Assembly: GCA_030141605.1 (NCBI GenBank)
Contig: JAQGDQ010000046.1
Coordinates: forward strand, 186,001-250,000
Direction: 5' to 3'
Origin: Tubiluchus corallicola
Lineage: Eukaryota; Animalia; Priapulida
Length of the DNA: 64,000 nucleotides
Shown: piece after piece, positions 64 through 47,530 of the stretch
Layout of the letters: the number at the start of each line of letters is the position of its first letter
Position numbering within the stretch: the first letter of the stretch is position 1
Position numbers and translations under genes: made by a program
Notes under the pieces: model-generated
What the model was told of the DNA's origin: nothing
What the model saw: the letters and a program-made list of their open reading frames with translations, nothing else
Database searches by the model: none

Positions 64-3000
64 ATTTCTCATCAGACACCTGGCAGGTATTAGTTCTGTT
101 TTAGCAGCTTACCCAACGAAAGAAGCAATAGAACAAGTGTTAGTTTACTTATGATAGTTAGAGTAATAATCAGTAATTATACTAATTTAATTTTATGAAA
201 TCGATTTAAAGCCTGAACTATCTGTAGGTGGTAAGCTCTTAGGATGCAGACAATAGAGGTCTATTTGATCGCATATGTAATAAAAATTGCAAACAAGTTT
301 ATAATTACCAACTGAAAAAAGGTGCAATAAATTATTCCAAAAATAAGTGACTTGCAACCTTATGCCAATATATATAGGGCTGTACAATAAATAAACACGT
401 TTTTGACATTCTATAATAATGCTTATTTATAATTATCTTATAAAATAGATGTCATTTAGAGTACGTCTAAGAGTTGCAAATTGCTAAAAGAAAAGCCCAC
501 CAGTCTAACAAATTTGATAATATAATATAGATAGTTGGATACCAATTAGATATCTCAAAACTTTGTAAATCATCATGACATTTACATTTTAAAACACATA
601 GATAACATTTTTTAAAACACAGTGTGGTGCACATTTATAATTCCCATATTACTAAGCTAACTAGCTGCGGACAGCTTTTATTCATAGAGTTATAAGCTAT
701 GTTTGTATGTCACAGTAAGTCAGTAACAAAGGTTACTAAACGATGCACAATGCCAGAGTCAATGTTATTTACTGCAGGCAATATAAACTGTCGCTGGCAT
801 GACGGCCAGCAATCACGCAAACATTTGTCTGCTAGTAGTTTAATTAAAAACATAAGAACAAACCAAAAATACTCGTAAAAAATAAGAACAAAAATTTTAA
901 TATTCCAATGAATACTAGACATTTAAAGTAAAGCCCAATTAAAAGACACTATAACAATAATATAAAATTTAACAAGGTAGTAGATAAAAATTGAATGAAA
1001 ATGTAGTGACAGAAGCCCTTACATTACTTATAATTGAACAGAAATTTATTTTTTCCTCAAATTTACAGATGTTCAGTAAGTAACCACTTCCAGTCTGCTA
1101 GGGTGCAATAGATGAATAGAATACAGTAAATGTAAATAGGGCCTAATTCCTAGTACTAAATGAAAAGGAGAGAGGATAGCGAGCCAGCCAAAATGTCATC
1201 AAGTCAGCCATTCTTTTAATATGTTAAAATAGTAAATGATCACAGGCAGCACAAGGGAGTAATGAGGTGCAGACAATAATAGTACTATGTCAGCCTTAGG
1301 TTCGTGTAAATGTATTATGCATTACATTACGACAGTAAGCATTTTGACATTTGGCACACTCAACAATAACTGTCCAATCGATCTTTACAGCGAGCTACCA
1401 ATTTCAAATAGCTCGAGTTTAGTGGCATGGTTTTGGTATAACATTCTAATTTTAATTACAAACTTACACAAGACACAGCTTAAACTACAAAGAAATGACA
1501 CCCCGTGTTCAGTTTACTATTCACAAATGATTGATAATACGCCATCAATAACTATTACATTATATTGACTCACCTAAATTACTCGTATCCCATATAAGTG
1601 GAATTAATTAAAAATGCAATTAGAAATCCAACTTTTGCTCTACCACACAATCCACGTCCACTCGGCTGGTGACTGGCTGACTGCTTTGAACAGAACACTA
1701 AGCGAGTTTCCTGCTGTACATAAACAAAGACCTACTTGAATTCATTTTCGTCGCGTGCTGCCATCTGTCGTTCAGTTTAATATTTAAAATGTTTTTAGTA
1801 GTCAAAACCTTATTAGAGCAAGCAAAATAAAAATTTAATCTATAATACACACATACTGATCAAACGTCAGAATTATATATACAATATTCGGCTGATTCGA
1901 ACAGTAATCAACCTCACATAATCGTCATGTGAAACACGTCCCTAAGTAATCTCTCTTATCATTAAAATTATTAATTTTACAAAATTAATAGACAGTAATT
2001 ATTATTAATGACAATAAGTTCAAAGTTTTCTAATTTCAAACCACGCTTACAAAATCTATTAGATTCAGAAATCTTTCACCTAAATAACGAATTCCCATGA
2101 TACTCAAATTCTCGCTTTCAACGGTAATTCAATGTTATACGTAGCTGTCGTCAGCTAGACGGCCTCCCAAGTTTTCAGTTTTCAAAAAAGTGTCTCAAAA
2201 ATTAGCTGTAAAGTACACTTCAAGTTTTATTTACCACAGCTGTGACCTTGGTAGTTTGACACCCTAAGCAAAAATATTTTAGCGTACCCTCTTCAACAGT
2301 CAACTCCTTCCCTCATGGTCCTCACCATGCTCTATTGAAATTTTCTTGTATAATATTGTAATGTGTGATGGTACTTGTGTGTTACACTATACATTTCTAA
2401 TAACGTACTAATCAAGTACAGTTAATTACCTTTCCACAACTTGGACTGCTTAAATCTGAAATTTGATTTATGATCTTACTGTACGCTTTATGACTTGCTA
2501 GCTTTTTTATCATTTGTTTCCTATATTGCACCCTGATATTGATTTCAATTCTTATGGCAAAAACAGCATAATGCGTCATAAATGTATGCGTGAAGTGACA
2601 ATCTTGGGAAACCAGATGAAGCTAAAGTGTTTGGCTGTGGGAAGACTCTTGATGGCAACAATGAACTATACATTTTGATAGGAAAATAATGCAATTTGTT
2701 TGTTTCACTTAATTAGTATAGTACACTTACAGATTACACATAAACTATGCTACTAGTTATACTAAACTTAAAAATTAAAGAATCGTGTCAGAATTTGGCA
2801 CCATAGGCAACTGCCTAGTTTGCCTTGCGGTAGAGCCAGCCCTGTTTTCCCTTACACATTTTACTCAGTTAGTTCATTCCAACTCGGTATTAGTTCTTAA
2901 TTAAATATATTTTTATGCATTCATTGAAAACTTGTGTACATTATCTAACAGATATTTAATTATTGCCAAGAAGCTTAATAATCACCAGCATACACCTAGT

Positions 3001-3905
3001 ATATCATTTGCATGACAGTCAGAGCTTAATATATATAGTCACAGACTGTTATAGTCATCACATAGTGCACCACATAATGTCCAAAGAAAAGAAATTTTTT
3101 TTATAAAATATAATAAACAAAATTTAACAGAAATCATTCATTATCAAGAGATCTTTCACTGGCATTGCCTTATAATCTTTTTTAATCCCTTTCACATTTT
3201 ATTTATGCTAAAGTGACTCTCACCCATTAATGGTTCTAAAATTCTCTGTGCATTCAATAACAGGAAAATAAGCCAGCAACGAAAATGTAAAACATTAATG
3301 TATGTGCTCACAAATTTTATTCTTTATTAAAAGAATGTTAAAATTTTTTTAACAGGTGAATGCAAAATGTTTGTAATGACTACTGGATGATTATCGGCTG
3401 TGCAAATTCAAACACATTTTTTTATCATTTCAACACATTTCAGGAATATCAATATTTTTCTAACAGTGATAACAGATTATAAATTACTGACTACAGGGCA
3501 ATTTAGTTGCTATAAACAGTAAGTCACAAAGCAAGTGCAAAATCTAAATCACAGAAAGGTATTGCTGGTGGCTTCTACCCTAATGTTTTTTTGATAGGAG
3601 TTACAAATTCCACATCGTCAAACATAGCCATGTTGTGCCTGACCTTTCCGGTAAAGTCACACGAATGTGTACTATCTCACTGAGCTCTAAAAAGAAATTT
3701 TATAACTCTAAAGAACAACAAAATAACTCAAAAAAGAAAAAACTAGTACTATCACTGTCATTGTTATATGACTCAGTAACGACTATATCACTTCACAAAA
3801 CAGCAATGGACAGCCACCATGACAAGAAACGCAATGCGAGTCCTCGATTTCTCCAGCATTACTAAATAATGTTGATCTTCAGAGATTTCTCTGACAATAA
3901 AGCCA

Positions 3906-6900
3906 TCAGCTGGTAATGTCAGAAAAATTAAGAATACTTTTAACAATGTCATTAACTGCCTGTAACGCTTTGGAATTTGGAAAGAAGTGTGCAAGGTTTT
4001 CTCCCCTTTCTAGTGCAGTTGTCAGGTCTGGATCTATAGGGACACAACCTGCAAAAAAACAAAATTATTAATAAGCACATGGTGTTATTCTACAGTTTTT
4101 CACAATAGTAGCATTCTAGTTTAATAGATCACAGAGATCGAATGTGAAGCCAACAAAGAAAATTGCTAGCAGGACAGGGCATTGCAGAAAGTATAATAAC
4201 AATGTTCTGTAATCCAGCAAACTTATAAATTGATAAGTTGTGACTATTCCAAAACCAACTAGTCAATCTACTGACAAGGAAAAAACATTATAATCTGGCA
4301 TCCCTTTAATTAGGTTGCTAAAGCATTGGACTACCACACTGACATTGTTTTAACAGCTGATAAAGGAAAAACAACAGAGGTTTTAAGACACATTCAGACG
4401 TCCAGAAGTACAGGAAACAAAGATGAACTCCAGAGAACAAAATTTTGAGATCACTCAATTGTAACTTCAAATTTAAATAATGCTAAACTTATTCTCTGGC
4501 AATGACAGACTATTTTAACAATGAAATCACAGTCAAAAAGCATGACAATAACAGCAATGGAGAATTGTTTTACAAACTGACTTAAATAATGAGAAAATTA
4601 TGTTTAGCAACCGGAAAGATGCTCGCGGACAAAAGTAATTCAGAAAGTGTTAAATTAGTAAATTTAAAAATAGGTGACAAAAAGTTTGGCAGTGAAAACA
4701 TCACATTGGAAATGACAAGTACTTAAATTTGGTCAACGACATACACTGATTTTTATTAGGCACATTTAAAAGCTCAATGATATACAGTTTTAGATACATA
4801 ATACAAGTTTGCAGAAAAAGTATTATATGATATTAAAATCAATATTTTACCTAAAAATGGAACGCCAACTTGATGTGCTAACGATTCTCCTCCCCCTTTT
4901 GAAAATAAATTAGTGCACTCCTGCAAAAACAAATTGTGAGGTGTGATCAATAGAACGTAGTCAGGGTAAAACGATAACTAACGATAAGATATGCAAATTA
5001 CATTGAAAAGAAAAGTAAAAAAACATACGTGAGTCAAGAGGATTAATTTAGCATTTATTTGGGTTCCAGTTAAAAATGAAGTTCTTAATAGCCAAAGTAA
5101 GCTTCTTTCAAGTTCAAATTTTCCCACTGCAGGACTAGCTTTCATCAAATTCAAATTGTCAAGTTTTTAAGAAAGTCTTTGAGTTATTAAAATTAATTTT
5201 TGAGAAAGGGAAATCTTGTTCTGTATTCAGACACATTTGCTGTCATTTAATTTGTAAAAGCAATTCAACAAATTAAACCAGAAATCAACTAAATTACTCC
5301 AGGTATGAATCATTTCAATAAATTGTGAAAGTTTACATTTTTTCACTTTCTTATTTGAGATTATAGAAATGCTTTATGGACATTCCTTAGGGACTTCAAA
5401 GAAAATAAATTTAAATTTTAAGTTTGCATTTGAAATTAAAACACACTAGTTTAAGTTTGGAGATTTTTCAAGATGGAACTCGACTACACAAAAAAATGGT
5501 TTATCCATACACAAAATAGTACAATACTCAAAGCCAATTGTAAAATTAAACTAATAAATAAATTAGAAAATACATACCGAGCAATGGGGACAAACAAAGC
5601 TGCTCATATTTTCTATAATTCCAATTATTGGTATTTTGGTCTTTCTACAAAATGTCACCTCACGGCGTACGTCACCAACAGCTATAGCCTGGAGAGAAAT
5701 AAAAAAATGTTAACATTTTTATAATCATACGTTTACAGAAAAAGCCATTAGCTAAAGGTGAAAGAAAACAACTCAACATTCAACTTCCTATTAATCATGA
5801 CTGCCATCAGTTATATGACAAAATTGTATTGCTTCTAGTTGATCGTGCAACTAAAAAAGTGAAACCTGTGGAGTTGTCACCAAAACAGCGCCATCTACAT
5901 TTGTAAACCGACGTAGGTTCTCCATCACAGTGATATGTTCATCGGAAGTACCGGGTGGAGTGTCAATAATGAGGTAATCTCTGTCAAACCAGTGTACATC
6001 ATCAATGAACTGTTTTATCATAGCTGAAAGAAAATCAGTTAGGAAAATCAAGAAAAGAAAACATCAAGTCAACAACATTGTTACCAATAAAATATTCAGC
6101 AGATTTAACATGTAAAACTTAATTCCTGAACAAGGATAGCATTTCAAAACAAAGACACATAAGATATTACTGGCACGTTTAACTGGACAGTTATGCAGAC
6201 AGCTTACTGAAGAAACTAAAAACACATCCATCTATTTCCTAACTACTGTTTCTGTCATCACGTATGCCTTACTTGTTTTCCTTTGTTGTAAACAGCTAAA
6301 TTTCTAATTAATGGATTTTAATATTGTTAGTATTTTTGACACACAGAAAATTGCGAGTTCAAGTCTTGGGACAGGGCTGTGAAAAGATTAGTTACGTACC
6401 ATTTTTCTTGGGTCCTCGCCATACCACAGCATCATCCTGATGGTTTAGAAGAAATCCGATTGACATGACAGCTAGCCGTTGCTCTTTATCCACAAACACT
6501 GGCACCCAACTAAAAATAAAACAGATCTAACTTCCACACCTTTAAAACATTTTACTAAACAGCCTAAACATTCAAACTGTTTCCCTAGAATTTTGTCAGT
6601 TCTAAGGAAAATTTGTTACCGTATGTAGTGGTTTTAGGCAGTGGTACTTGTTACTTTTTAACTTACAAATAAACCTTTGTTGAATCACCATATCAATGAG
6701 TATAACATACTTAACAATGGCATACTTTTCTTAAATATACCACTTATGAAACTGGCAGATGGTCATATAAAGTCTCAAGTGGTGTTTACCTTGGTATCCG
6801 GAATGTGTTATGCGTTATGCACCTACCTGTGGAATAGCAGTGTGTAAAAAATCAATAGGAAATAGCTGCAGAAAAAATAACACATAACCCAGGTCTAGTA

Positions 6901-9900
6901 AATGGGAGCATTGAAAACAATATAAACATTGAAAACAATCTATTCTGCATCTGCATAACACATAAGCATTCAGGATGCCAGGTAAATGCCTGTGACGCAT
7001 ACTGTAGATGGAAGTACGCTGTACAGCAAACTGCACAAATTGTAGAAACACTGTCAATACAATACAATGCATGCTTTCTTACATTAACATACTTCTTTAC
7101 ATCAAGGTACAGTACAGCATTTCATAAACACATATGCTTGCATGTTGATCTGATTGCGAAATGAGTTGTATATATTGCTAAATGGTATATGCACAACTGG
7201 CTAGTTTGACGGTTTATACTTGCCCTTCAGCACACTGATGAATATCATGCCCTTGTAAATTTAGCATTTTGGGAATGCTTGGGCCACAAAGGTCAACATC
7301 GAGAATTCCAACCTGAAACAAGAAACAAAACAGAAGTGCAAATACAAAACATAACAGCAAGATAAACATGCACTCAAATTGCACACACTTGGCCTGGAGA
7401 CAGTATTGTTTTGTCCCGTGTATCCACCATGTTGTTCTGTTTACAATTACGTAATTTAGTTCCTCAACCTGTAATCAGTTACATTAGACTTGCAAATAAT
7501 TTCATGCACAACAAACAATGGATGATTGCCATATCAGATTAATATTACTTGGAATGGTGTGTTCAGAAATATCACTTCGTAAACAAGGCTTTGAAACTCG
7601 ACTCACAAAAATTTAACTTGCATTACATAAAGTTATGGTCATGTGAGAAAAAAACTGCCCACTGTTAGAGACTAGGTGAGTTATCAGAAAAGTGAAACAT
7701 TTCTAAAGGTTGGCAACATGGCCAGTTTTATTAAATTGATTATGTTGAATCGAAAAGAAAAACTGCTACAAACCTGAAATTGGCAGAAAAGGAACAAAAA
7801 TGCAAAAACAAAATGGCTACGAAGTTTTCCACAAACTATACGATTCAAAAGAAATTCCTAGAAAATTAACCTTAAGAGGTGATTACAACATCTACTCCAG
7901 AGTAATTTGACCTAACGAAAAGTGACCCGTTTTCAAAATGTCTGCCACGCAAAATGAAACTATGCCAAACAAGCAATTATATTAGCCACTGCTTCACCTA
8001 GGCACATACTTACTTGGTTAGTTAATTTTATTGACCACAGGCTAGTAGGTCCAACAATAGCATAACAAAAGAATAATAATTGACTCAAATGCATAATAGG
8101 CACACAATCTAACTTAACACAATGTCAAAACAAAATACTTATAAAAGTTAAGTATAGACATACTATATAAATCAGAGGCTTCAAGTCGAGTATTCATATT
8201 TTCATAATGCATTTTGTGTTAATTGACAAATAATTTTTGGATCTAAATTCCGTAAAGCATCAACATTAATAATTGTCTGACTTATGTATTTAATACGTAA
8301 ATTCTCAGTTACTGCACAATTAGTTATACATCAATGTTTTTCAGTTTGAACACTTAGACTGCACTCACAAAGTTATAGGTCGCGGTCAACACATAAGCAA
8401 TGCCCAGTTTCAACTCCCAAGTAATGTGAAATGTGTCTCATGCCAGAAAAAGATATACATGTATGTTCAGAAATACTCTTACTACTATAGACTGAGTGGA
8501 AACTTCAATTTGGATTTAATTCAGTTCTATAAGTAACACTTTTTGTTTTATCTGGTAACAATATACGTACTTTGATTTTCTGTGCTCATACATGTATTAT
8601 AAAAAGCAAAGCAAATTTTTGTACTAATTCGAACTCGCTGGATCTAAACAGCTGCTACTAGTTCCCTCAAAAAGAAACAAAATGAAGACCCAGTTCCCTA
8701 AGATCACATACCGTAGCAGAATGGTAAACCAGGATTTACAATATACCTTTTTGAGTTTGTCTTGCAATCCCAGTGCTAGCTGTACAGCAATGGTGCTCTT
8801 TCCTACGCCACCCTTTCCAGACAGTATTAAAATCACATGCTTAATAGTAGAAAACTGGACAGATTCTGATTCTGAAAAATGATGCAAGACTCAGTAATCA
8901 CAGTTTACAGCTATTATAAAATTTTATAACCTATGCAATATACACACAATGCACTATCACTTGAATTGACCTTCATTTTAGAAATCAGAAGAAACTCTGC
9001 AGCTTATTTGCCTGTGGCTTTACAGTTAAATTAGTATTACAGAAAAGATTCTAAATTAATGAATTATCATCATCATATGCCCATTATGTAAATTGTAGAC
9101 ATCGGGCAGGCAGAATTCTAAAATAAAAGAAATCCACCCTCAAGACAGGTGTGGTGTTTTTGCCTTGGTTAAAACCCACTTAACCTTTGCTACAACAAAT
9201 GATGCCTTCGCTGGGAGCAGACGTGCTTGTTTGCGAAAACTAACTATACGTATAACCGATGAAGGCGCGCAACAAGAAAATCATGCCAATTGAGAGTCGT
9301 TGGGATGCTCGATATACAAATTAATTTACCGAAGATTATTTTTAGTTGAGCTTAAACATTTGTTATTATTTGTTAGCTGCAAAATAATTAGAAGAAAGTA
9401 GATGACAAAGTAAACTGTAAAATAAGCAATTTAGTAGCTTATTAAAAAGATGCCAATGAAAATAAGTAGCAGTTGCTTGAAACCCTCATTTGACATGCAG
9501 TATGGTATCACCTGGCAAAGCGCATGCGCTGAGCACCGCGTTTGTGTATAAAGCAAGTGTTTTAGCCGAGATCAATGCATTCACTGCCCTGCTGAGAGAA
9601 AAGCAGAGAAAAACAAAAACCTGCAGTAAAGGTGAGAAATTAAAACTCAAACTTCCAAATTGAAGGATGAAATAACTCAAATTGCCTCAGTCACATGAAC
9701 TTGTGACTGAATTAAGGCAGAGATGTACAAATATTTATCTGACAAATTGAACAGCCCACTTCATTCTGAAATAGAATGATACAACCTTAAATTAAAAATG
9801 TGTCAATTTCAATACTCAGTTTTAAGTTTGCTCCGAATAATAAAGTTGACTCCTACTTTATGGAATGTTTACTATCACTTTATTGTATCTGATTTATGAT

Positions 9901-11268: not shown

Positions 11269-11310
<42 letters not shown>
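11269..11310. repeat. (ATT)14 microsatellite
   Basis: Directly visible. Confidence 0.95.
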
Positions 11311-11312
<2 letters not shown>

Positions 11313-12143: not shown

Positions 12144-12604
12144 GTGTTTTGTTGTTGTAGCTACAATAAATAATATACTTTTTTTTCTTTTAATAACTGT
12201 ACTCAATTTATGACTGTATTATGAATATGAATGATTATTATAATTTATATATATTACTTACATGAATAGTTGTTGTAAAAAATCTGCATTTTAATCTTTT
12301 ATGCAATTTTTTACATTTTCGACTGAATTATTTTAGTACACAGTGGTTAACTGAATTAATTGCATTTTAGAGCTTAAATCCTCCCAAGAAATAAATGTTG
12401 ATGAAACCTAGTTTTTCTTTTTGGGGCTATTGTTATCTTTCCGAACCAGAATGATTAGCATATGTCAACAAATGTTTACAAAATCTAGTAAACCTTGCCA
12501 ATCATAAACTTAAATCAAGCAAAAATTCGGATTGTTGGCTTTCTTTAAACAAAACGAAATCCTAATGACCAATTTTGCGACCAGTCAATCATACAAGAAC
12601 GCAC

Positions 12605-12763
<159 letters not shown>

Positions 12764-12799
12764 ATACAGTACTGTTTTTTGGTGTCATTTCTAAGTTTT

Positions 12800-13525: not shown

Positions 13526-14105
13526 CACTCATATCTCGGTTTGCCAGATAAAAGTGGGTAGATGTAGGTCCGAATTTGCCGATTGTCCGTATTTACCGAT
13601 ACTGAGTTAGTACAGTAGGCGCCGTGTATTAGACTCACGGTAATGTAGAATCAATTACCTAATTGTTTCTAGTACGGGCCGCTTTTATGCAAAAGTATAT
13701 AAAAACTGTCGGCAGTTGACTCAAATAACTCCGCATAATTGACTCTATTTTTATATGTAGTAGTAGTAGCAGTAGTAATAAATATAACTTTTGTGATAAA
13801 TAGTTTTTCCACTCTAATTGCAACAAATTCAACATAATATATATATTAGATTATCATCAACACCTAGGTGGCTCCACTGACAGGTTTTCTTACTATAATA
13901 TGTAATCTCACATGTAATATAGAGATATACACGTGGTTACACTGGTGTAGTGATGTAAACGAAGTGACGCCCCCCAGCTAGCTGTCAGCATTCGAAACAA
14001 TGGACTGTGTCCTTAGTATGTGGGACTTTTTCACTATCCAGATTTTTAACGTCCGATTCTTCCAATATCTGTAAAAGCGAGGCCCGGCAAACCGAGATAT
14101 GAATG
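13526..14105. mobile_element. Tc1/mariner (pogo/Tigger-like) MITE with a nested fragment of a second family
   Basis: TIRs CACTCATATCTCGGTTTGCC / GGCAAACCGAGATATGAATG, TA on both sides. The internal TA-CAGTAGGCGCCG... at 13611 matches the left end of the 17756 element. Confidence 0.8.
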
Positions 14106-16135: not shown

Positions 16136-19100
16136 ATGGAGAGCTGTAAGTCACATTTTATCTTACTAATGGCAGTCGCTGTGATTTTCTTTCTGATATT
16201 ACTGGTAGTTCCTGTTACCGTAGCAACTGATAAAGACCTGAACATTGAACCTAAAAAGGCATCTTTGGAATATCCGCCAAAAGAAACCGGAGCTGAGGTA
16301 AATAACAAATGAATCTGTTCAAATAGCTGAACTTTTTTTTAAAGAACAAAAATGCTTTTGAAGTTTCTTTTCTTAGCTGATCCTGGTGCTGTGCTGTACA
16401 TGATACTTTGTGTAAAAGTGTACTGTGATACGCTATGTAAAACTTGTAGTTGTTTTAGGCCTGTGTTGTTACAGAGTTAATGCATAATTTTGTTTTCATG
16501 TTCTCATAAATTGCTAACCTTTCCAAGAGTGGACTTTTGTTAAATTTCTTTTTTAGTCTACCAGTTCAAAACAGGGAGTTGTTATTGCACCCGCTGGAGG
16601 ATTTGTTCATGGTTTTATCGAGACCGTATCTGTCATCATAGTGACAGAGCTAGGAGATAAGACATGGTTCATTGCTGCTATAATGGCTATGAAATATCCA
16701 CGAACTGTAGTTTTTACTGGAGCCATGAGTGCTCTTATTATTATGACAGTTCTGTCAGGTAAAAAAATTTGTTATTACGTTCAACAGTGAAGACTACAAT
16801 CTCATTATTTTACATGTACTGATGAAATCATTATTGTACATCTTGTATTCATTACTATTTGCAAGCTGCCTGTTAATTGCTCACCACTGCAATAAGACAA
16901 CTGACAGTATTCAATATGTAGCAGTATTAACCAAATTAAACTGGTTGAGTACTTCAAACATAATAACACATTATAGCTTGCATTATAGCACATTAATGTA
17001 TTTGAAATTGTGCTGTAATAGCTAATTGGCTGTATTACATGCACTGAAAAATTACTATTACAGGCAAAAAATTGCCTTTCAACACCTAGCGTTTCATCTG
17101 AATAAATACAGTACAGAGGTACAACGTCGAAGCCGATATGGCTAAATCAGTGCGAGTCAGATGTCCATTGTCATCATGGAGAAAGAATTAGCACTGAGAC
17201 GCTTGCGCGCGAGAAGAGATGGCCGCGCAAAGTCCACCTCCACTTGGCAGATAGAGTGTAGATCGGCGGCATGAAGAGACACGACGGCCGCACTCATAAT
17301 CTGTTGCACCGCAGTGAAGACAACCAGAAAACAGGCCGAATCGGCAAAATGAACTGAAAGCTTCTCGATGAGCCATGCCATGCCAGAAGACGAGTTGCCA
17401 GCCTTGCACGCCATGAACCATCATCCACACAAGCTGCTGCCCTTGTGCTTGGGTGCCTTCATCCGCTTTTACAGCCGTTGGGAGTGGAAGATTCCTCGTC
17501 CGCCTGTCAAACCGTTGAGGACTTCAGTCGTATCCCTGACCAAGGGGGGCGCGCTATACCCCGCACCACTGGGTCCTTGCCTGAACTTAGTTACTGCTCC
17601 CGCAGCATCCACCCCCGCGACTAGGACGCGCCAGACAAGAGTTGCCCAAGTGCATCTAGAGAAGAGGGCTCTAGATACCAGAGGCCGGGTTAACTCCTCT
17701 GTGTGAAGCCAGAAGAGAAAGCACAGAAGAGAAAAGAAGAAGAGAAGAATAAATACAGTAGGCACCGTTTATTAAACTCACGGTTAATAGAATCAGTTGC
17801 CTAATTGACTCAAAAACGTCTGGTGCAGGCTGCTTTCATTCAAATGTATATAAAAACTCTCAGTAACTGACTCGATATTTTTCCTTCACATACTTAAAAT
17901 AAGGTGCTTGTGTGTGCTCAAAGAGCTTTTGTGTCATCTTTACTCCAATTTTGTACATTATAATACATGTAGAAATAGTCATGTTTGGTACAGTTTTGTT
18001 TGTAAGTAGGTACAGTACATTTATCATATGTGCTAACATGTTAGCATAGCGGTTTTGCTTTGAATCTGTCACCTGCTTTTTCGCTATAGTTAACCTCATT
18101 GTTTCTGGAAGCTAAACGTTTTAATCACTTGCCCAGTGGTTTGCTTTTGAAGTTCTTACTGCTTTTCACCGGGGAAACAAGATCGTCACCAATTGCAGCT
18201 CAAGCACTAGGTGACTAGGTGTTTTGTCTGAATATGTGCAGTATAGAGCAACTGATTTTCAAAGTTTTTATCATTATGAGATTTTCATAAATCAACTTCT
18301 TCATGAAAAAATGAAGCAGCCGACCTTGCATGAACTTTTGTAATTTTCAGGGTTAGGAATCAGATTTGTACATTTTTTTTATTTTCTTTTTTTATTAATT
18401 CACTTATATAATTAGTATTCTTAAATAATTGCACATAGGAATTTTAACATTAATTCATTTCTAAAATTCATTTAAGGCCTTTAGAATACATAATAAGTAA
18501 CAATACTTCTATAGTTGTATCAGGCTACACCCATCGGCTAATTGAATCAGTCAGTTAATTCGGTCAAAACACTTCCATCCCAAAGTGAGTCTCTTAGCAC
18601 CACCTACTGTAATAAGAAACATAAAAAATTAATATGTTCACTCGAATGGTTTTTAGCACAACAAATGTTAAAACTCTATGTGAGTACATTAGTAGTATTA
18701 AGCAATGCTTTAACTGAAAGAACAATACATGGTGACCATGTAATTTACCTATAAAATTTTGTTATTAACCACTTTTTGCTTGCAGCGTTATTGGGATATG
18801 CTACAACGATTGTTCCACGTACTTACACGTTCTATGCTTCGGCAATTCTGTTTGCTGTTTTTGGCATTAAGATGTTGAAAGAAGGTATAGTAAACACCGA
18901 AATTTACACAACATAAAGCAATAGCACATTCATTTGATTTTTGGTGTTAATGTTTTTGACTGTGGTAAAATTAAATTGGTGATTACTGAAAAAAAATGTT
19001 TGTAAAGAAATAAGTTTCCTCTCTGGCTACTTAAAAACATGAAAGGCCTACTCATAACTTCTTTAAATGTTGATTCAGGCAAGAACATGATAAGAAATGT

Positions 19101-32300: not shown

Positions 32301-35300
32301 AAAATTATTATGCTAAGGAATTTGTTTAGCAGCATGGGCAGTTGATTATTTTAACTAACTAAGACATCAACATGTTATGAATTAAGTTTGAAAACATTTA
32401 TAATGAGTTTTTTTAATTTTGAAATTATCTTTGCAAGTGCTGTTATTTTTTGCACTTTTTGTAATAATTCATTAACATTGCATGTCTATATATATTTGAC
32501 CTAGTATTCATTCTTAGTCATTTATTTGCATTCGACAGATCAGTAATTAAATAGTAATTATATTTCAGAACATGTTGGGCGGTTGAAAAAACTTGAGTAC
32601 ATTAATCTAACTCTAAATAATCTGACACAAATTGAAAATCTAGAAGGTAAATTTATAATATTTTAGTTACCAAGAAGTAAAAGGACTTCGTTAGCAGTAA
32701 AAGGCACTATAGTTTTTTGCAGTAATTTGATATTGCTGTTCGTTTTCATGATTTACTATGTGTTTGGTAACAGCTATTTAATGTAACTGATTTGAAATAA
32801 AAAGAAAAAAATTACAATCAACTATTCATAAGTAATAGTCAGGCATAATAAAATGAAGTAAGCGTGCTTGAGTGTTAATTGATATTGCGAGGCAAGTGAA
32901 GATATGTATTATCTATTTTTGTCTGTTCAAAGAATTATAAAAATTGTTCAAACAAATAAAAAATTGTAACTAGTTGACAATATTTCTGACGTTGTCGGAA
33001 ACTGAAGATTTTGCAAACAATAATTGTAAGACTGAGCCTTGAAAATAAACAGACGACAGCCTTTTTTTTGAAAGTGCTTATTTTCTTTTATTGAAGTGCT
33101 TGAATACATGGAAAGTGCATTTCACAATGAAACCTCAGCATTTGACTGTTCAGCTCATCACCCATCAATGGTCAACAATCTTGACATAACTTATATCATT
33201 CAGTTTGTCTCATGGAGACCTTTCATTTGATATACAACAGCCTACTTTTGGTAGATCCTGGAAGGCATTTGTCTCCTCGATCCCCATTTTGTCCCTTAAC
33301 TGGGCCACAGGTTAACGATTCACATTGTAACCCATACCATTCGATTCGCCTCATCAAGATCTTTCATTTGACGTGCTATATGTACTATTTGTAGACACTC
33401 GATACATTTCTGTTCTCGATCCCCATTTTTCGGTTTTTGCCCCTTAGCAGGCTTGCGGTTTAGCCATTCTCATTGCAACCTATGCCACTCGACTCGTCTC
33501 ATTGGGACCTTTGATTTGATATGCTACACGTCACTATTCTAATACCCTTGTGCATTTCTGTTCCCAACTCCCATTTTTTGGGTTTTGCCTCCTAGCAGAA
33601 AAATTTCCCCCTCCAAATCACCCATATTCTGCCATATCCAACAACTTGGCCCTACCTAACCATATACCAAATATTGTTGCCCTAGCTCAGAACTATGGGA
33701 GCAGACGGATCCTAAAGAAAAATAAATGAAGACCCGCCTGCTCCATGACCTTTGACCCAGCAACTCGGGTCACACTTATACGTAGATAACTTTGGCCAGA
33801 GAGTTTACCCTGTGAGTTTTGTGTCCTTAACCTTCAGCATGTAAAATTTCACAAATTGCGCGATCCCAAGTTTTGAATTTTGGCCCCTCACTGGGGTGTT
33901 TAAAGCTTGTCAGCTTTTTAAAACCCCAGGTGCCCCACAGTACCCAAATACTTGTGAAAAAAATTGGAAAAAAACGAAAGCCCTAGGAGGAGTGCGACTT
34001 AAATGGAAAGGTGACTGATGTCTACTGCCCTTCCCCCTTGACAAGTGGTCAGTGGTCACCACACGGTTGTATGTCCCCCATCCAGGTCTACCAACCCTGC
34101 AAGGCTTGCAAGCCTTATGAGTTAGTAAGCGTTAAAGTGGCGGAGAATAAATTAATAATAACTAGTTGACAATGTTTCTGACGTGGTCAGAAACTGAAGA
34201 TTTTGCAAACAGTAGTTGTAAAATTCAGCCTTAAAAATTAAGAGATGACAGCCTTTTTTGAAAGTGCTTATTTTCTTTTATTGAATTCACCTTGCTCGAG
34301 AACATAGAAAGTGCATTTCACAATGAAATCTCTGCATTTAACTGTTCAGTCTGTCACCCACGGGTCAAAGGTCAACCAATGTCAACATAACTTATTTCAT
34401 TTAGTTTGTCTCACTGACATCTTTCATTTGATATATGTACTACAAGCTAGTTTTGGTTAACACTTAAAGAAGTTTGTCTTCTCGACCCCTATTTTGCCCT
34501 TGCTGGGGTCAGAGGTCAACCAGTCTTGCCATAACTTATGCCATTAAAGCTCACTGAGACCTTTCATTTGATATACTACAAGCTACTTTTGCTCAACCCT
34601 GAAAGACATTTGTCTCCTCGACCCTAATGGGGTCACAGGTTAACATTTCTTATTGTAAATCATACCATACTCATCGAGACCTTTCATTTGATATGCTACA
34701 TGGTACTATTCCTAGACAATCGATGCATTTCTGTTCACGACCCCTATTTTTAAGTTTTTGCCCCCTATTGGGGCCTGAGATTAACCGATCGCTATGCAAT
34801 TATTACCATTCAATTTGTCTCATTGAGACCTTTGATTTGATAGACTACAAGCTAGTTCCAGTCAACACAAAGGCATTTGTCTCCTCGACCCCTATTTTGC
34901 TGTTAAATGATTCTTATTGTAACCTATGCCATTCGATCCGTCTCATCGAGACCTTTCATTTGATGTGCTACAAGGTACCGTTGCTCAACACTTGAAGCTC
35001 TTCTGTTTCCGATCCGCATTTTTCAGGTTTTGCCCCCTAGCGGGGTCGCAGATTAACTATTCTCATTGTAACATATGCCATTCGATCCGCCTCATCGAGA
35101 CCTTTCATTTGACGTGCTACAAGGTACCATTGCTCGACACTTGGTGCACCTCAGTTCCCGGCCCCCATTTTTCGGTTTTTGCCCCCTAGTGGGGTCGCGG
35201 GTTAACTATTCTCACTGTAACCTATGCCATTCGATCCTCCTCATCGATACCTTTCATTAGATATGCTACAAGGTACCATTGATCAAGACTCAGTGCACTT

Positions 35301-38300
35301 CTGTTTCCGACCCCCATTTTTCGGTTTTTGCCCCCTAGCGGAGACTTTTGCCATATGCGCGCTTCCCATATTTTGCGATGTGCAAGGCCACGTCACCACC
35401 TAGCAATATACCAAATATTGTGGCCGTGGCTTAAAAACTGTAGGAGCAGATGGATCATAAAGAAAAATAAATGAAGACCCTCCCGCTCCGTGTCCTTTGA
35501 CCCGTATCCCTAGCTGTCAGCATGTAAAAGGTCACCAATCAGGGTTCTCCAAATTTTGCATTTTGACTCCTCCATCGGGCAGTTGAAACTTGCCAGGTTT
35601 TTAAAACCCCAGGTGCACATCTACCCCATTGTACGCAAATACTTGTGAAAAAAAATGGAAAAAACCAAAAGCCTTAGGAGGAGATGTGACCTAAAGGAAA
35701 AATTGACCAATGCCCACTGCCCTTCCCCTTGACCAATGGTCAGTGGTCACCACACTGTTGTACATCCCTCGCCCAGGACTACCAACCCTGCAACTTTGGT
35801 GACCCTAGCTTGCAAGACGTAGGCGTTATTAAGCGTTAAAGTGGCGGAGAATGAATAAATAAATAATAATAACTCAATAAAAACAGTAAAATTTTGCTAT
35901 AGCAAAATCTTAATTACTGGGAAAACTGTCATATTTCGACAAAGAGGCAGTCTGGAGAAATCCTGTAATAGTATCGTACATTCTTGCTTCTTTATTTTTA
36001 GGTTGTGAATCTCTGACCAAACTGGATTTGACTGTGAATTTTATTGCTGACCTTACCAGTGTAAAGTCACTGAAAGCAAACAAGTTTCTGGAGGAATTGT
36101 ATGTGCAAGGAATTGAAATTATCATATATGTGTAAACATTTCTGAACACAGGCTTACATTGTCAAGCTTTTAAAAGTGTAATCGCACATTTTAGATCTAT
36201 AATCTGCTGCCTCATTTGAATGCAATTAAACATCAAAAATCATCTGGTCCACCTATGAACATTAAAATGTATTTAATGAAAAAAGATGCACCTATAAAAA
36301 TATTAAATTTATGTAAACTTTACTAAGTTGCTAGTATATGATATGATGACACTTGTTTGTGTTTTAGTGGAATCGGGTTGATCTTTGTGTTTTGTTTAAG
36401 GTGTTTGAAGAGAAATTTTGTGTTCCTACTAGTTTTTGCCTTCTGTGGAAATGTTATTGGTCAAGTAGAAACTAGATTGCACAAATTTAGTGTATGAGGC
36501 AAAATTAGTGAGGCAGAAAGTGTAGTTACTGATGCAGCATTTTTAAACAACATATGCATATGTATTACATATGTGAAGTGATTATATTAATCACATATTT
36601 GATACCGCTTTCTCAGAATGATTGACTGAAACCAATATAATAAGTATCAGATAGCAGAAAAACAGAATAGTAAGGCAAAATAGTAAAACTGGCAGAAATT
36701 TAAAAGAGCAATCTTATAAGAACAACTGGAGAAAATGTTTCAAATTAAAGGCTGCATATAGTACATGCAATAGGGATGCAAATTTATAATTTTTTATCAT
36801 TTAAACTTTTGCAGCTCGGATGCAGGCTAATGTAGTATGTAACTATTCCAGGTATTTAACAGGAAATCCTTGCACTGACTTTGATGGTTATCGGCAGTAT
36901 GTAGTAGCTACTTTGCCGCAATTGAACGTACGTAAATTACCTGTAGTTCATATGAACTAGCATGGAATATATGTTCAATATTGGACATTTATAATATGAT
37001 GTTGCTTGGAAACTAGTAGCATAACTATAGACACACAGGCCCTGCAGTTGCAAAGTTCCCTTTCATTGGAGGAGTCCTTGGTCAGTATTGGGATAATTTC
37101 TTCACTAATGTAGCTGTTACAATCGCAGTTGCATTTTTTAAAATGCATAATTACTTTTCACACTCTCGAATTCTCTTTAGTCTTATATCATTTTTAAGCA
37201 TTCACGGCTCTAAATTTGCGTGCTTGTTTCATAGATCATACTGTTAATATTAAATGTTTCAAGTATAGTATTTTGATGTTGATTTGTTAATGATTATTAT
37301 GTTGTGTATCTTTCCTCTTAACCATGTAAGTGTAGAATATTCATGCCTCACTGGCACTTTTGTTCCTATAAGAGAAAATGAAGTCGAGTAACTACCTGCA
37401 AGCTGTTGCAGTTACAGTATATAGCAAAAATGTGTGTTTTGCTTTCTACTTATAATAGTGTGTGTAAATCTGGTGTAGAAGGGAAACATTGTTTTTTGCT
37501 GTTGCGGGCCTGTTTATGCAGACATCAATTTTGGCTGTTGCATTATGCAGTAACGCAGATCTTGTGTGCCTGGGTGAAGTATGATATGCAATTAATTAAA
37601 AAACTTTTGGTTTGGTTTGTTTTACTAAATTCTAAGCAAATGTAACCGAAAAAGTAATAGTTGTTTCCATATATGCTACAGCAAAAAGAAACTTGTTATA
37701 GTTACAAATTACTTCAAAAAGTTTGTAATTCTTTACAGTTACAGTATCACATTTCTGGAGATACTCTACAATATGTATACATTTGTAACGTGTTACTTGG
37801 TCACGAAGAAGACTGCGAGTGCACCGAGTGCATAATTAGGTTTACCAAATACTTGCTAACATGTAATCACGAAGAAATAAAATTTAAAAGCAACTTGTAA
37901 CAGTTTATATCAGATTTTAAAATTTGTACTACATCCATAAGCCACAAAAATTTTACTTTTGAACTATAGGGGCCTAATTATTTTGCAAAGTGACAAAAGT
38001 ATAACTATGCTAGCCAACCCAGGAGAGTTTAGCATTACAGACTAGAAACACTTGGCTGTTTGAATTGCACGTATGTCTGCTATGGTAGAATTACTTTTAA
38101 AGTGATCAATGTGCTTGACAAAAATACTGAATGCTCACAATTGTTATGACTAATATCTGTTGAATGTTCAGTTCTTAGATGTTGTAGTTTTTGTGTAGAC
38201 ATCTTATAAATTCTTTTTACAGAGGCTAGATGGCAAAGAAATACTTAAGTCAGAGAGAATAGAAGCCATGCAGGTAATTGTTCTTTTTACAAAAATTAAA

Positions 38301-41300
38301 TATTTAAAATATTTGTAGAGTATTCTGTGTCCCTAACAAAACTAATAAAAGCTGTGTAACCTTTTCATAAAAAATGTGTGTATCTGATGGAATTGGAAAC
38401 ATATAGATATATTCTTGCTATTCAAAGAAAAAAATATTCTAAATTTCTATGCGTTCGCTTTGAAAGGTACAGTAGCTTTTTATGAGAAGCGCAACCATTA
38501 GCTCTTTCTGTCAAGTTATTTTATGTGTTTGAAGCTTTTTAATTTAAAATTTGTCATTACCGTTGCAGGATGCTAGCATATTCGAGCAACTAATGTAAAT
38601 TTTGACTTATGAAAAAATGTTGCAATTGTGTGTTAGTGAGATGTATTGCCTTTCTAAAACATAAAGCTGTCTGGCAAAGTGAACAGTCTAGTCCCATTTT
38701 CAGAGAAGAGGAACCCTAGAAGCATTTTTTTCTAAAAGTGGGCAATACAGCCAGACTTACTAATTTGACTATGTTGAATCCGAAAAAAGCTGTTATCAGC
38801 TCGTGAAATTAGCGGAAAGGAGTCAAAAATGGCCGCCAAGTTTTTGCACAACCAATGTAAATTAAAAGAAATCTAACATTAAGAAGCCATTATGACATCT
38901 ATTCCAGGGTAGTTGGACCATGGAACCCTTTTCTGTAATTTAATTTGAAAAATGATGACGTTTCCAAAATGACCGCCACTAGACTAGAACAAAGTCATGA
39001 AAAGATGCTTCTATAAAGTTATAGGACATTTTTTTCTAAAAGTGGGCAACATTGCCAGTCTTATCAATGTGGCCATGCTGAATCCGAAAACAGCTTTTGC
39101 CGGCTTGAAAAATTAGCAGAAAATGGTCAAAAATGCAAAAAAAAACAAAACAAAATGGCTGCGAAGTTTTTGTGCACACAATGTAGATCAAAACAAGTTC
39201 CAAGAAAATTAATAATGTGAAACGATATGATGACATCTATACCAGGATTTTTGCAATCTATTTCTGTTACTTTTATTACATTATGGCAACAGCTTAGTTC
39301 GGATTCAGCATAGTCAAATTAATGACTGGCTATGTTGCCCACTTTTAGAAAAAATGCCCTTAGAACTTTATAGAAGCACTCTTTCAAAATTTGGGCCTAG
39401 ACTAGACATAACTGTTTAGAACCGAAGTTCTGTTGTTGTTTTGTTGTTTTGACATAGGTATATGAAGAAGTATCTGCAAAAATTCTGAAACAGCAGCAAG
39501 ATTACTTTGAAAAACAGGTAAAAAATTGTTTAATTTAATAAGTAATCAAACTGGCACTTGTTTAGCAAAATATCAAAATTGTAATAATGAACAAAATGAG
39601 CTTTTATCAAAATCACACCGAGTAGCATCATAAATGAATAACATAAAAACTGCATCAAAATTTTTGGTTTTTCGTTAATTTTTAATATGTTTTAAAAAGA
39701 CAATCTGCTATAAGTCGTAAAGCCACAATATTGTACTTAAAATTTTGTAACGTGTTTTAATTTTATTGCGCATTAGATAGTTTTCACTAATACTGATGTG
39801 TTTTTATATCAGGAAAGAAAAGAAGAAGAAGAAGCTGAAAAGGAGAGGAGAAAAGCAGAAAAGCAGCCTGGATTTGATGGTCATTGGTACACGGATATCA
39901 ACACTGCTGACACAATTGACAAACATTCTGATTTGTCTAAACCCGTTGTCGACGACAATAAATTTTGGAATACACCTGAATTGTACACTCCACAATCACG
40001 GATTGAAACTCATGAATATTTACAGCAAATGAAGAAAAAGGATCCCAAGACCAAGCATGTTTTTATATTCACTTTACTATTAATAAATGGTTATTTTTCG
40101 TTAACAAGACAAATATTGACGATAAAAACTTTCAGTCTTTCTTGCCAGGAAGCACAGAACAAATTTGTTTTTATAAGACGAAGCACAACTGTGCGTAGTT
40201 ACAGACATATACTACGGTAAAATCTATTTGTAATAACAAAACGGTGAATTCCTATTCATGTCAAAACAACAAAAAAGAATAATAGATGGTTAAAAACAAA
40301 AGAAAGCGAGACTCTGTCAAAAACAGTTTAAAATAGAATCTATTATAGAAAAATATCACTGAATCATGTGTTGCAAATGAACCATTGTGATTGGCTTACA
40401 GATAATAAATACACAATATTTTTTAACTACTGTTTTTCGTACAATAAATTGGGTTACGTTTTCATGTTATGATACGTCAAAAACATTTAACTTGATTTTG
40501 CAAATATTTATAAATAATGTGCAGTTTAAGAGTGCAATAATATGTATGGTGATAATTAATTATACACCATTAACATTATTTTAACTTTTTATTATAGATC
40601 ACAGTTATATGAAAAAGAAGCAAAAAAAACTGTAAAGCTTGTAAAAGATGATGGACAATTTTTAAATGTCAATGAGGCAAAGTATGTACTTATGCAATAA
40701 AATTTCATGGATTAAAAATTGAAAACTAATAGTCACTGTGTATGATGAAGTAGTACACAAGAGAACAACCCTTTACCAGACCTGACCAAATAATCTCGGC
40801 AGTTTGCATTGCTCCTGCGTATCTGAGGCATTAAGCAGTATTTACCCTTCTCACTTGAGTGCAGGTAGGAACCTAGTAAGTCCCACTTTTTGAAAATAGG
40901 CAGCTCACACAGGTATTTAGTTCTGCTTCAGCGCAACCTAGCACATCCATTATAATTAATTTAAGAACTCTTCCTTTTACAAAATGATAAATCAACTTTT
41001 AAAGTGTAGACAGGGTAATCCATTAAACCATTGTTTCTTGGCAAGCAAAACAGTTTTTCACCGTGTTTCTCCTAACTAGCTGAAGTGTACTTAACTAGAT
41101 ATTTCCAGAAGATGGGAGATTTCCACTTTGTCCATTAATTCTGTCATTTTCATGTCAATTTTAATTTTTATCAGCATTTTCCTTAATTTCAGAATTGACT
41201 TTTGTCTAACAGATGACAACTCAAATTTATATTTGGAATTACATCTATACAGACATATGGATACATCGCTGGTTGATTTAGATATTCATCCAACTCATGT

Positions 41301-47067: not shown

Positions 47068-47530
47068 ATTAAGATTTATTGCAAAATCTTCTTGATTGTT
47101 AATCACTTATTGCTTAATAATACATTAGCCTTGCAAGCTAGAGTAACAAAACTTACAGGACGGGTAGCCCTTCTTGGTGAAGAGCAGCAGTGGAGCGACC
47201 TCTGATCTGTGGTCAAAGGTTTCGTGGGTGTGCGAGTCATTCCACTTTTCTGTTAATATACATCTCCTCCTAGGGCCTTAGGTTTTCAATTTTTTCATAC
47301 GTATTTAGGTATTGTGCGGTAGATGTGTATTAGACTAGCATATCAAATAGGGGTAGCAAGTTGCGATTTCATTGTGAAGTACAGTTCCTAGGTAATCAAG
47401 CAATGCATATTTAATAAAATCACATTTATAACTTTCAAACAAAGGGTCTTCACTTTTCATTGTCTAATTCTGTAACTATTGTCTGCAAAACTCAGTTTCA
47501 GATCATGTCAGAAACACTGTCAACTAGTTG
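47068..47530 (-). mobile_element. Internally deleted third copy of the LRRC6-intron Helentron/DINE-like family
   Basis: Reverse complement begins AACTAGTTGACAGTGTTTCTGACATGATCTGAAACTGAG and contains CCTAGGAGGAGATG, CTAGCTTGCAAG and TATTAAGC blocks matching 35600-35835. Terminal hairpin AAGATT..AATCTT. Confidence 0.75.

What the first reader, a model, noticed from the sequence alone, without database searches (positions are those of the whole stretch)
17576..17709. HDV/CPEB3-like self-cleaving ribozyme fold hidden antisense in a TMEM165 intron
Seen: the minus strand reads CUUGUCUGGC-GCG-UCCUAGU-CGC-GGGGGU-GG-A-UGCUGC-GGGA-GCAGUA-ACUAA-GUUCAGGCAAG. This gives, in the correct order, P2 (CUUGUCUGG pairs with UCAGGCAAG), a 3-bp P3 GCG/CGC closing a 7-nt L3 that starts UCC, a P1 3' strand ending in U, the GG that pairs with the L3 CC (P1.1), a 6-bp P4 capped by a GNRA loop, and a J4/2 with the catalytic-C motif CUAA. 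A P1 5' strand GCCCUC (G1 at 17669, G.U wobble at the cleavage site) lies upstream. Alternatives are GCCUCU (17685) and GCUUC (17709), which would put one or two strong hairpins (GUAUCUAGAG/CUCUAGAUGC; CAGAGG/CCUCUG) in J1/2. Known: this is the nested double pseudoknot of HDV and CPEB3 ribozymes (CPEB3 also has GCG/CGC P3 and a 7-nt L3), and such ribozymes process the 5' ends of R2/RTE-type retroelements. Caveats: P1 here is 6 bp rather than the usual 7 (possibly one G lost from the G run), and the best P1 strand is sequestered by a competing 10-bp hairpin, which could inactivate it or act as a switch. Inference: a possibly uncatalogued ribozyme family in this lineage. Being antisense it spares TMEM165 pre-mRNA.
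Basis: partly seen in the sequence, partly recalled or inferred. Interest (0 to 1): 0.78.

Follow-up and report, generated by a model that had tools for sequence, protein, structure and literature searches.

The report
Ribozyme head of an RTE retrotransposon
The predicted hepatitis-delta-type self-cutting RNA sits at the front end of a young, likely RTE-type jumping gene that has inserted backwards into a TMEM165 intron in some chromosomes but not others, and it likely trims the start of that element's own RNA, an arrangement already known from other animals.

Summary
The HDV-like core is real as described (minus 17640-17575); it is the only descriptor hit in both strands of the window (background 0.3-1.5 per Mb). 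It is not a host-gene feature. It heads a 633-nt insertion (17114-17746) with a 14-bp target duplication; the empty allele exists in 2 of 4 runs. Just downstream lies a 70-nt block shared with the 5' UTRs of 10 named RTE LINE families, so the minus strand is the element's sense strand. A second family changes 7 visible positions, none in the core, and keeps the catalytic C. This copy looks internally deleted and has a weakened P1. Cleavage, expression and the APE-RT protein were not shown. HDV-like ribozymes at RTE 5' ends are published, and this scan noted the same kind of element in other genomes. Verdict: new member of a known kind; low interest.

The parts
17747..17760 (.). Target-site duplication, copy at the element's 5' side (14 bp; starts with T in element orientation)
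   Evidence: Longest direct repeat flanking the GC-rich insert; empty-allele joint 17099->17747 with 14 letters fitting both sides in X1 and X3
17723..17746 (-). 24-nt pyrimidine tract between the duplication and the element head; resembles repeated copies of the element's own first ~12 nt, likely added at the 5' junction of this copy
   Evidence: Sequence; family contigs do not continue into it; origin is inference
17717..17722 (-). Predicted P1 5' strand, G1 = 17722, predicted cleavage site just 5' of it; GCUUUC here, GCCUUC read in a family copy
   Evidence: X1 record 5 and X2 record 15 run exactly 3 letters past 17719 and stop; X3 loose end after 17719 is GGC then unrelated flank; X1 record 6 aligns to 17723 then flank; duplex -2.5 (this copy) vs -5.3 kcal/mol (family variant)
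17695..17716 (-).
   Evidence: Predicted fold (J1/2 z -3.05, 3 of 200 shuffles as stable)
17644..17685 (-). J1/2 hairpin B (10-11-bp inner stem 17679-17650, 7-nt pyrimidine loop); holds G17685 and G17669 paired
   Evidence: Predicted fold, both Gs ~99% paired; inner 7 pairs kept in family B with C-G to U.G and U-A to G.U changes, read by eye from a 30-letter loose end
17630..17640 (-). P2 5' strand
   Evidence: Pairs with 17586-17575, one bulge next to P3
17617..17629 (-). P3 (GCG/CGC) and 7-nt L3 UCCUAGU
   Evidence: Sequence
17609..17616 (-). P1 3' strand GGGGGU and GG of P1.1
   Evidence: Sequence; no change listed in family B
17592..17607 (-). P4, 6 bp with GGGA loop
   Evidence: Fold; family B has loop UUAG and base pair U-A changed to G.U on both sides
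17575..17591 (-). J4/2 with predicted catalytic C17590, then P2 3' strand
   Evidence: Family B changes only the variable base of CNAA (U to C) and keeps C17590 and 17576-17588
17455..17524 (-). RTE 5'-UTR motif, 199 nt after G17722
   Evidence: Four exact blocks of 13, 8, 9 and 12 nt in the same order and spacing (one spacer 18 vs 17 nt) as RTE-2_Croc; like blocks at positions ~140-300 of 10 RTE families in the supplement of PMC5786205 (compared by eye)
17171..17454 (-). Rest of the 5' segment; an open frame 17420-17172 without homologue found; family copies continue past 17171 with other sequence
17114..17170 (-). 57-nt piece from a much deeper-covered repeat, likely the element's 3' end joined by internal deletion
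   Evidence: Depth 27,620 vs about 1,500-4,800 on the 5' segment and 205 on the flank in X2 (summed depth, no copy number); junction at 17171; 3'-end identity is inference
17100..17113 (.). Target-site duplication, copy at the element's 3' side

Best explanation
This is a predicted HDV-like self-cleaving ribozyme forming the 5' end of a young, likely RTE-clade non-LTR retrotransposon, present here as a likely internally deleted 633-nt copy inserted antisense into a TMEM165 intron with a 14-bp target duplication. Mechanism: a read-through transcript enters the element on the minus strand (inferred); P1 forms between G17722-17717 and GGGGGU across a 76-nt J1/2 whose two hairpins hide the competing G-plus-pyrimidine sites (predicted); C17590 catalyses cleavage 5' of G17722 (inferred from the family's known chemistry); the freed RNA starts at G1, so full-length new copies start at that G (family contig ends fit this); target-primed reverse transcription from the 3' end makes the insertion and its duplication (duplication and empty allele shown, process inferred). 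This particular copy carries a C-to-U change in P1 and an added upstream tract, and probably cleaves less well than the family (I put efficient cleavage of this copy at about 0.4). It cannot cut TMEM165 pre-mRNA in cis because it is on the other strand.
For: Core geometry and rarity. Insertion with duplication and empty allele in 2 of 4 runs. Multi-copy: X2 depth about 1,500-1,700 on family A and 1,331 on family B vs 205 on the flank. RTE 5'-UTR motif in sense orientation 199 nt after G17722. Four family-A records in 3 DNA runs (2 samples) end in a way that fits a 5' end at 17722; other right-hand ends at 17702 and 17570 fit 5' truncation, while no scattered left-hand ends are listed. Family B: 7 listed changes in the 46 visible positions 17576-17621, 0 in the 36 core positions (P about 1e-3 if counted as 4 events; core set chosen by me after seeing the data). 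Family B's X1 contig runs 3,390 nt beyond the ribozyme in the 3' direction, a length that fits RTE LINEs of 3.1-4.3 kb. P1 of 6 or 7 bp and early P2 mismatches are common in R2 ribozymes. RTE is among the clades with 5' HDV-like ribozymes and with bipartite derivatives.
Against: No cleavage or expression data. No APE or RT domain was seen: the open frames gave no real homologue, so the clade call rests on one 70-nt motif, and PMC5786205 notes that another RTE-type UTR block also occurs in an Ingi and an R4 element. The three letters past 17719 were read directly only in X3; in X1 and X2 only their number is given. In this copy the nested-layer energies for G17722 and G17685 tie (-43.3 vs -43.1). 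5 of family B's 12 differences lie near the ends of the match and were not listed, so P2 5', P3 5' and most of L3 are untested in B. One X4 contig has only four Gs in P1'. No Rfam ribozyme model scores even at E 10. That the 57-nt piece is the same element's 3' end is not shown; it has no obvious tail apart from a CTGTA repeat that overlaps the duplication.
Confidence: 0.8

Rival explanations
1. Same ribozyme and element, but the cut is at an inner site (G17685, or G17669), with the hairpins acting as a folding switch.
For: These strands make stronger isolated duplexes with P1' (-6.4 and -8.1 vs -2.5 kcal/mol); G17685 ties with G17722 in this copy's nested-layer energy; family B still has G plus five pyrimidines at the 17669 position.
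Against: Both Gs are about 99% paired in the leader fold; the G17669 arrangement costs 6.6 kcal/mol more; family copies extend to 17722, which a cut at 17685 or 17669 would remove; the family variant of the 17722 strand is 2.8 kcal/mol better than this copy's.
Confidence: 0.11
2. The element is plus-sense, the purine tract at 17712-17746 is its 3' tail, and the ribozyme lies antisense at the tail.
For: The tract looks like a GAA-type RTE tail and shares GAA with the start of the duplication; one plus-strand frame at 17106-17261 resembled an RTE C-terminus by eye.
Against: The RTE 5'-UTR motif reads on the minus strand; family copies lack the tract beyond 17722 and two end at 17702 and 17570 with no tail; that frame spans a junction of two repeats and has no Pfam or database match.
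Confidence: 0.03
3. The pairings are a chance or non-catalytic structure in a retroelement UTR.
For: No Rfam hit; imperfect P2 junction; weak P1 in this copy; 0.04-0.2 descriptor hits expected per window; no assay.
Against: It sits exactly at an RTE-type 5' end; family ends coincide with a P1-competent G; family B spares all 36 visible core positions and keeps P4 and hairpin B through two-sided changes.
Confidence: 0.06

Closest known systems
[quoted passage not shown] 2011; paper not held; seen as cited in passages of PMC6765202 and PMC5786205)
   Same: HDV fold at the 5' terminus of an RTE-type element, intronic location, RTE 5'-UTR motif downstream, target duplication
   Different: Different sequence; no Rfam model matches; activity untested; host lineage not determined
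R2 ribozymes (PMC3774820; passages and section 16 read)
   Same: 6-7-bp P1, 3-bp P3, long J1/2, tolerated P2 defects, variable P4
   Different: R2 is 28S-specific and often takes its P1 strand from 28S rRNA; here P1 is the element's own first six bases and the insertion is in an intron with a 14-bp duplication
Bipartite non-autonomous RTE derivatives such as RTE-N2_Lch, 5' 214 bp plus 3' 70 bp (PMC5786205 passages)
   Same: 5' end of the LINE joined to a short, abundant terminal piece (552 + 57 nt here)
   Different: The junction is seen at no more than single-copy depth, so this looks like one deleted copy, not an amplified family; the 3' identity of the 57 nt is inferred
CPEB3 ribozyme (features recalled; Rfam model gave no hit)
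   Same: GCG/CGC P3 with 7-nt L3; intronic
   Different: CPEB3's is sense to its host gene, single-copy and conserved, with a very short J1/2; this one is antisense, multi-copy and polymorphic
Twister variants at the 5' end of Perere-3 in Schistosoma mansoni (PMC8501958 passages)
   Same: Ribozyme cut site defines the element's 5' end next to the target duplication
   Different: Different ribozyme class; there the duplication supplies part of P1

Membership tests
HDV-like ribozymes | Order P1-P2-P3-L3-P3'-P1'-P1.1-P4-J4/2-P2' (nested double pseudoknot can form) | tested here: met
HDV-like ribozymes | 3-bp P3, 7-nt L3 starting with U and holding the G near its 3' end, 1-2-bp P1.1 | tested here: met
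   GCG/CGC, UCCUAGU, CC:GG; the consensus for L3 is partly recalled, L3 G noted as important in PMC3774820
HDV-like ribozymes | P1 of 6-7 bp starting with a purine-pyrimidine (G.U) pair at the cut site | tested here: met
   6 bp for G17722, G17685 and G17669; 6 or 7 bp typical in R2; weak in this copy
HDV-like ribozymes | P2 of 5 bp or more stacked on P3 | tested here: met
   9 contiguous pairs plus 2 more across one bulge
HDV-like ribozymes | Catalytic C and conserved A in J4/2 | tested here: met
   C17590-U-A-A; kept in family B as C-C-A-A
HDV-like ribozymes | Covariation across homologues | tested here: inconclusive
   Only one diverged family, partly visible: two-sided changes in P4 and hairpin B; none visible in P1, P2, P3
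HDV-like ribozymes | Mg2+-dependent, C-dependent self-cleavage | not testable with these tools
   Needs an assay
Rfam ribozyme families (HDV, CPEB3 and other curated models) | Score at the gathering threshold | tested here: not met
   0 matches in the window; 3 matches at E up to 10 in 17000-18200, none a ribozyme
RTE-clade LINE | Single ORF with APE endonuclease and RTE-clade RT | tested here: inconclusive
   This copy lacks it; full-length copies could not be read; frame searches blank or spurious
RTE-clade LINE | 5'-UTR similarity to named RTE families in sense orientation | tested here: met
   70-nt motif, 10 families
RTE-clade LINE | Target-site duplication | tested here: met
   14 bp, empty allele seen; starts with T in element orientation as in the abstract of PMC6007223, but only a TTT lies upstream
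RTE-clade LINE | 3' tail of short tandem repeats | tested here: inconclusive
   Only a CTGTA repeat that overlaps the duplication
Bipartite non-autonomous RTE family | 5'+3' junction shared by many copies | tested here: not met
   Junction zone 17150-17170 has depth 112 in X2 and 0 in X1 and X3; family contigs continue with other sequence in 3 of 3 DNA runs

The most novel reading that the evidence does not exclude
An undescribed pair of RTE families in which a G-only P1' strand could pair with four different G-plus-pyrimidine sites in the leader, and two conserved J1/2 hairpins choose the cut site; refolding would give alternative 5' ends, making the leader a tunable processing switch, with a polymorphic intronic copy as a natural test of its effect on antisense transcripts of TMEM165.
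Probability: 0.07. Interest if true: 0.5.

Novelty: new member of a known kind. Interest (0 to 1): 0.22.

Why it matters
It adds two related, apparently recently mobile RTE-type families with 5' HDV-like ribozymes from an invertebrate genome, and shows in sequence data alone that copy ends coincide with the predicted cut site. That supports the accepted model (ribozyme frees the element RNA from a host co-transcript) but does not change it. It has no evident role in TMEM165 biology: the insertion is absent from some chromosomes and is antisense.

Tried and rejected
No whole genome is held, so copies were seen only through contig tables (tables cut: 7 variant rows, 427 loose ends and 3,444 records not shown; 5 loose ends and 25 records). 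No RNA holder listed; the one run guessed as RNA had 0 records laid: no evidence either way on expression. My first idea, a plus-sense element with a GAA tail and an antisense ribozyme, was dropped. My guess that this copy lost a U from a 7-nt P1' pairing with G17709 was dropped: family contigs have no insertion there. Pattern scans for relatives: metagenomes 0 and 1 bacterial chance match; viral contigs 120 loci for a loose P3-L3 pattern, none similar to the insert by blastn at E 0.01, 9 of 120 passing a looser descriptor, 0 and 2 chance loci; prokaryote genomes 0 and 2 chance loci. Protein searches with the element's frames: none, 2 hits that are repeat-driven and unrelated, Pfam 0 of 6 element frames. 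Loose ends at 17712, 17718, 17745 and 17748 were set aside as unrelated GA-rich matches. Host lineage could not be fixed: the 90%-identical unnamed TMEM165 is 47-64% identical to 13 named animal proteins with no clear winner. No covariance model was built because only one full sequence was in hand. Papers PMC3308841 and PMC3256349 are not held. Literature searches run; none was aimed at this host, so 'not described' is not claimed.

Full report
Observation. All quoted elements are at the stated positions on the minus strand. A descriptor for the HDV core finds one hit in both strands of the window, this one; Markov backgrounds give 0 and 2 hits in 2 Mb each and 3, 9, 4 and 2 hits in 6 Mb each. 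The descriptor was written knowing the sequence. Rfam gives no match at gathering score in the window and 3 weak non-ribozyme matches at E up to 10 around the site. P2 has 9 contiguous pairs and needs one bulge next to P3. TMEM165 is on the plus strand and the site lies in the intron 16759-18785, so the fold is antisense to it.

The fold lies in an insertion. GC rises to 51-60% in the 100-nt bins from 17200 to 17699, against about 33% around. A 14-bp direct repeat flanks it at 17100 and 17747. Public contigs of X1 (depth 72.6) and X3 (6.65) join 17099 to 17747 with 14 letters fitting both sides, so the empty allele exists in 2 of the 4 runs laid (the 4 runs are at most 2 samples, and one may be the source of the window). 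X2 holds the filled left flank and X3, from the same sample, the empty joint, which suggests a heterozygote. The insert is covered far deeper than the flank in X2 (about 1,500-1,700 for the main long contigs vs 205), so it is a repeat, although summed contig depth is no copy number. The ribozyme core of the main family (A) is identical to the window in X1, X2 and X3 contigs, without gaps; one X4 contig has one G fewer in the G run.

Which way the element points. I first read the purine tract at 17712-17746 as a plus-strand tail. Three results reversed that. First, the minus strand at 17524-17455 shares four exact blocks (13, 8, 9, 12 nt) in order and spacing with RTE-2_Croc, and like blocks stand at positions about 140-300 of ten Repbase RTE families in direct orientation in the supplement of PMC5786205 (I read part 4 of 15 and search passages, compared by eye); the paper calls this region RTE 5' UTR (passages). 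Similarity was seen only over these 70 nt. Second, listed family-A ends scatter on the right (17570, 17702, 17719-17723) and not on the left, where all 3 DNA runs continue with the same other sequence at 17171. Third, the plus-strand frame that looked like an RTE C-terminus spans that junction and finds nothing.

The cut site. X1 record 5 and X2 record 15 align to 17719, run exactly three more letters and stop; the X3 loose end there is GGC followed by unrelated sequence; X1 record 6 aligns to 17723 and then departs. On the minus strand this puts the family's first base at G17722, reading GCCUUC in the X3 copy and GCUUUC in the window. Both pair 6 of 6 with GGGGGU (-5.3 and -2.5 kcal/mol). The 76 nt between this strand and P2 fold into two hairpins (-29 kcal/mol, z -3.05, 3 of 200 shuffles as stable) in which G17685 and G17669 are about 99% paired and G17709 is in a loop. 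With P1 and P3 forced, nested-layer energies are -43.3 (17722), -43.1 (17685), -36.7 (17669) and -35.0 (17709) for this copy, so energy alone does not separate 17722 from 17685; the copy ends do. The 24 nt between G17722 and the duplication resemble repeats of the element's first dozen bases and are likely a 5'-junction addition. In this copy G17722 can also pair with the P3 region before P1' is made, another reason to expect weaker cleavage here.

A second family. Family B matches 17551-17646 without gaps and with 12 differences in X1, X2, X3 (records) and shows the same variants in X4. Seven are listed: four replace the P4 loop, two turn the bottom P4 pair from U-A to G.U, one changes the variable base of CNAA. 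None falls in the 36 core positions among the 46 that the table can show (P about 2e-6 for 7 independent changes, about 1e-3 for 4 events; I set the core after seeing the data and inferred the visible zone from the table). Five differences near the ends are not listed, so P2 5', P3 5' and most of L3 are untested. B's X1 contig runs 3,390 nt past the ribozyme in the 3' direction, compatible with RTE lengths of 3.1-4.3 kb, but its letters were not available.

This copy. It has 552 nt of 5' segment (17722-17171) joined to 57 nt (17170-17114) of a much deeper repeat (X2 depth 27,620 at 17110-17141). Abundant 3' ends are what 5'-truncating LINEs leave, so an internal deletion is the simplest reading (inference); RTE is one of four clades reported to give such bipartite forms. 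The junction is at no more than single-copy depth. No APE or RT domain could be shown.

Comparison. A phage contig met in passing carries a compact HDV-like fold with nearly the same P3-L3 and a 6-bp P1. The primary RTE paper is not held, so I could not compare sequences with its ribozymes; its supplements may hold a close relative. Earlier notes of this scan report the same kind of element in other genomes and another HDV-like repeat in this genome; none matched this sequence. They are unchecked; one gave me the bipartite lead.

Verdict. Works like, and on every feature testable here belongs to, the HDV-like class; most likely the 5' processing ribozyme of an RTE LINE (0.8). It is not a member of any Rfam family by score. 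New member of a known kind; interest 0.22.

Noticed in passing
L020 1036-984, minus strand (IMGVR_UViG_3300045988_075351): Compact HDV-like fold in a 151-kb phage contig: 6-bp P1, 1-nt J1/2, 7-bp P2, GCG/CGC P3, L3 UCCCAGU, no clear P4, CUAA; no tRNA within the 2-kb locus. Resembles the minimal phage HDV-like ribozymes (recalled).
   Followed up: partly
window 17754-17900 and 13611-13722: Very high-depth MITE-like repeat beginning TA-CAGTAGG; the retroelement's duplication includes its first bases, so the insertion fell at the MITE's end.
   Followed up: partly
window 32955-35862, with related pieces at 47112-47529: GC-richer array of diverged ~149-bp units.
   Followed up: no
window 56077-56394: 157-bp tandem duplication at 99% identity; recent duplication or assembly artefact.
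   Followed up: no
window 38723-39405 and 7700-7912: Cluster of direct and inverted repeats of 70-200 bp, possibly a foldback element.
   Followed up: no
window 11269-11311 and 12593-12764: Long ATT and AAC microsatellites.
   Followed up: no
supplement of PMC5786205, near part 11: 5' ends of Vingi-1_BF and a region of Vingi-2_SPur, and SINE2-1_AMi, show by eye a CPEB3-type ribozyme core; the main text has no occurrence of 'CPEB3'.
   Followed up: no
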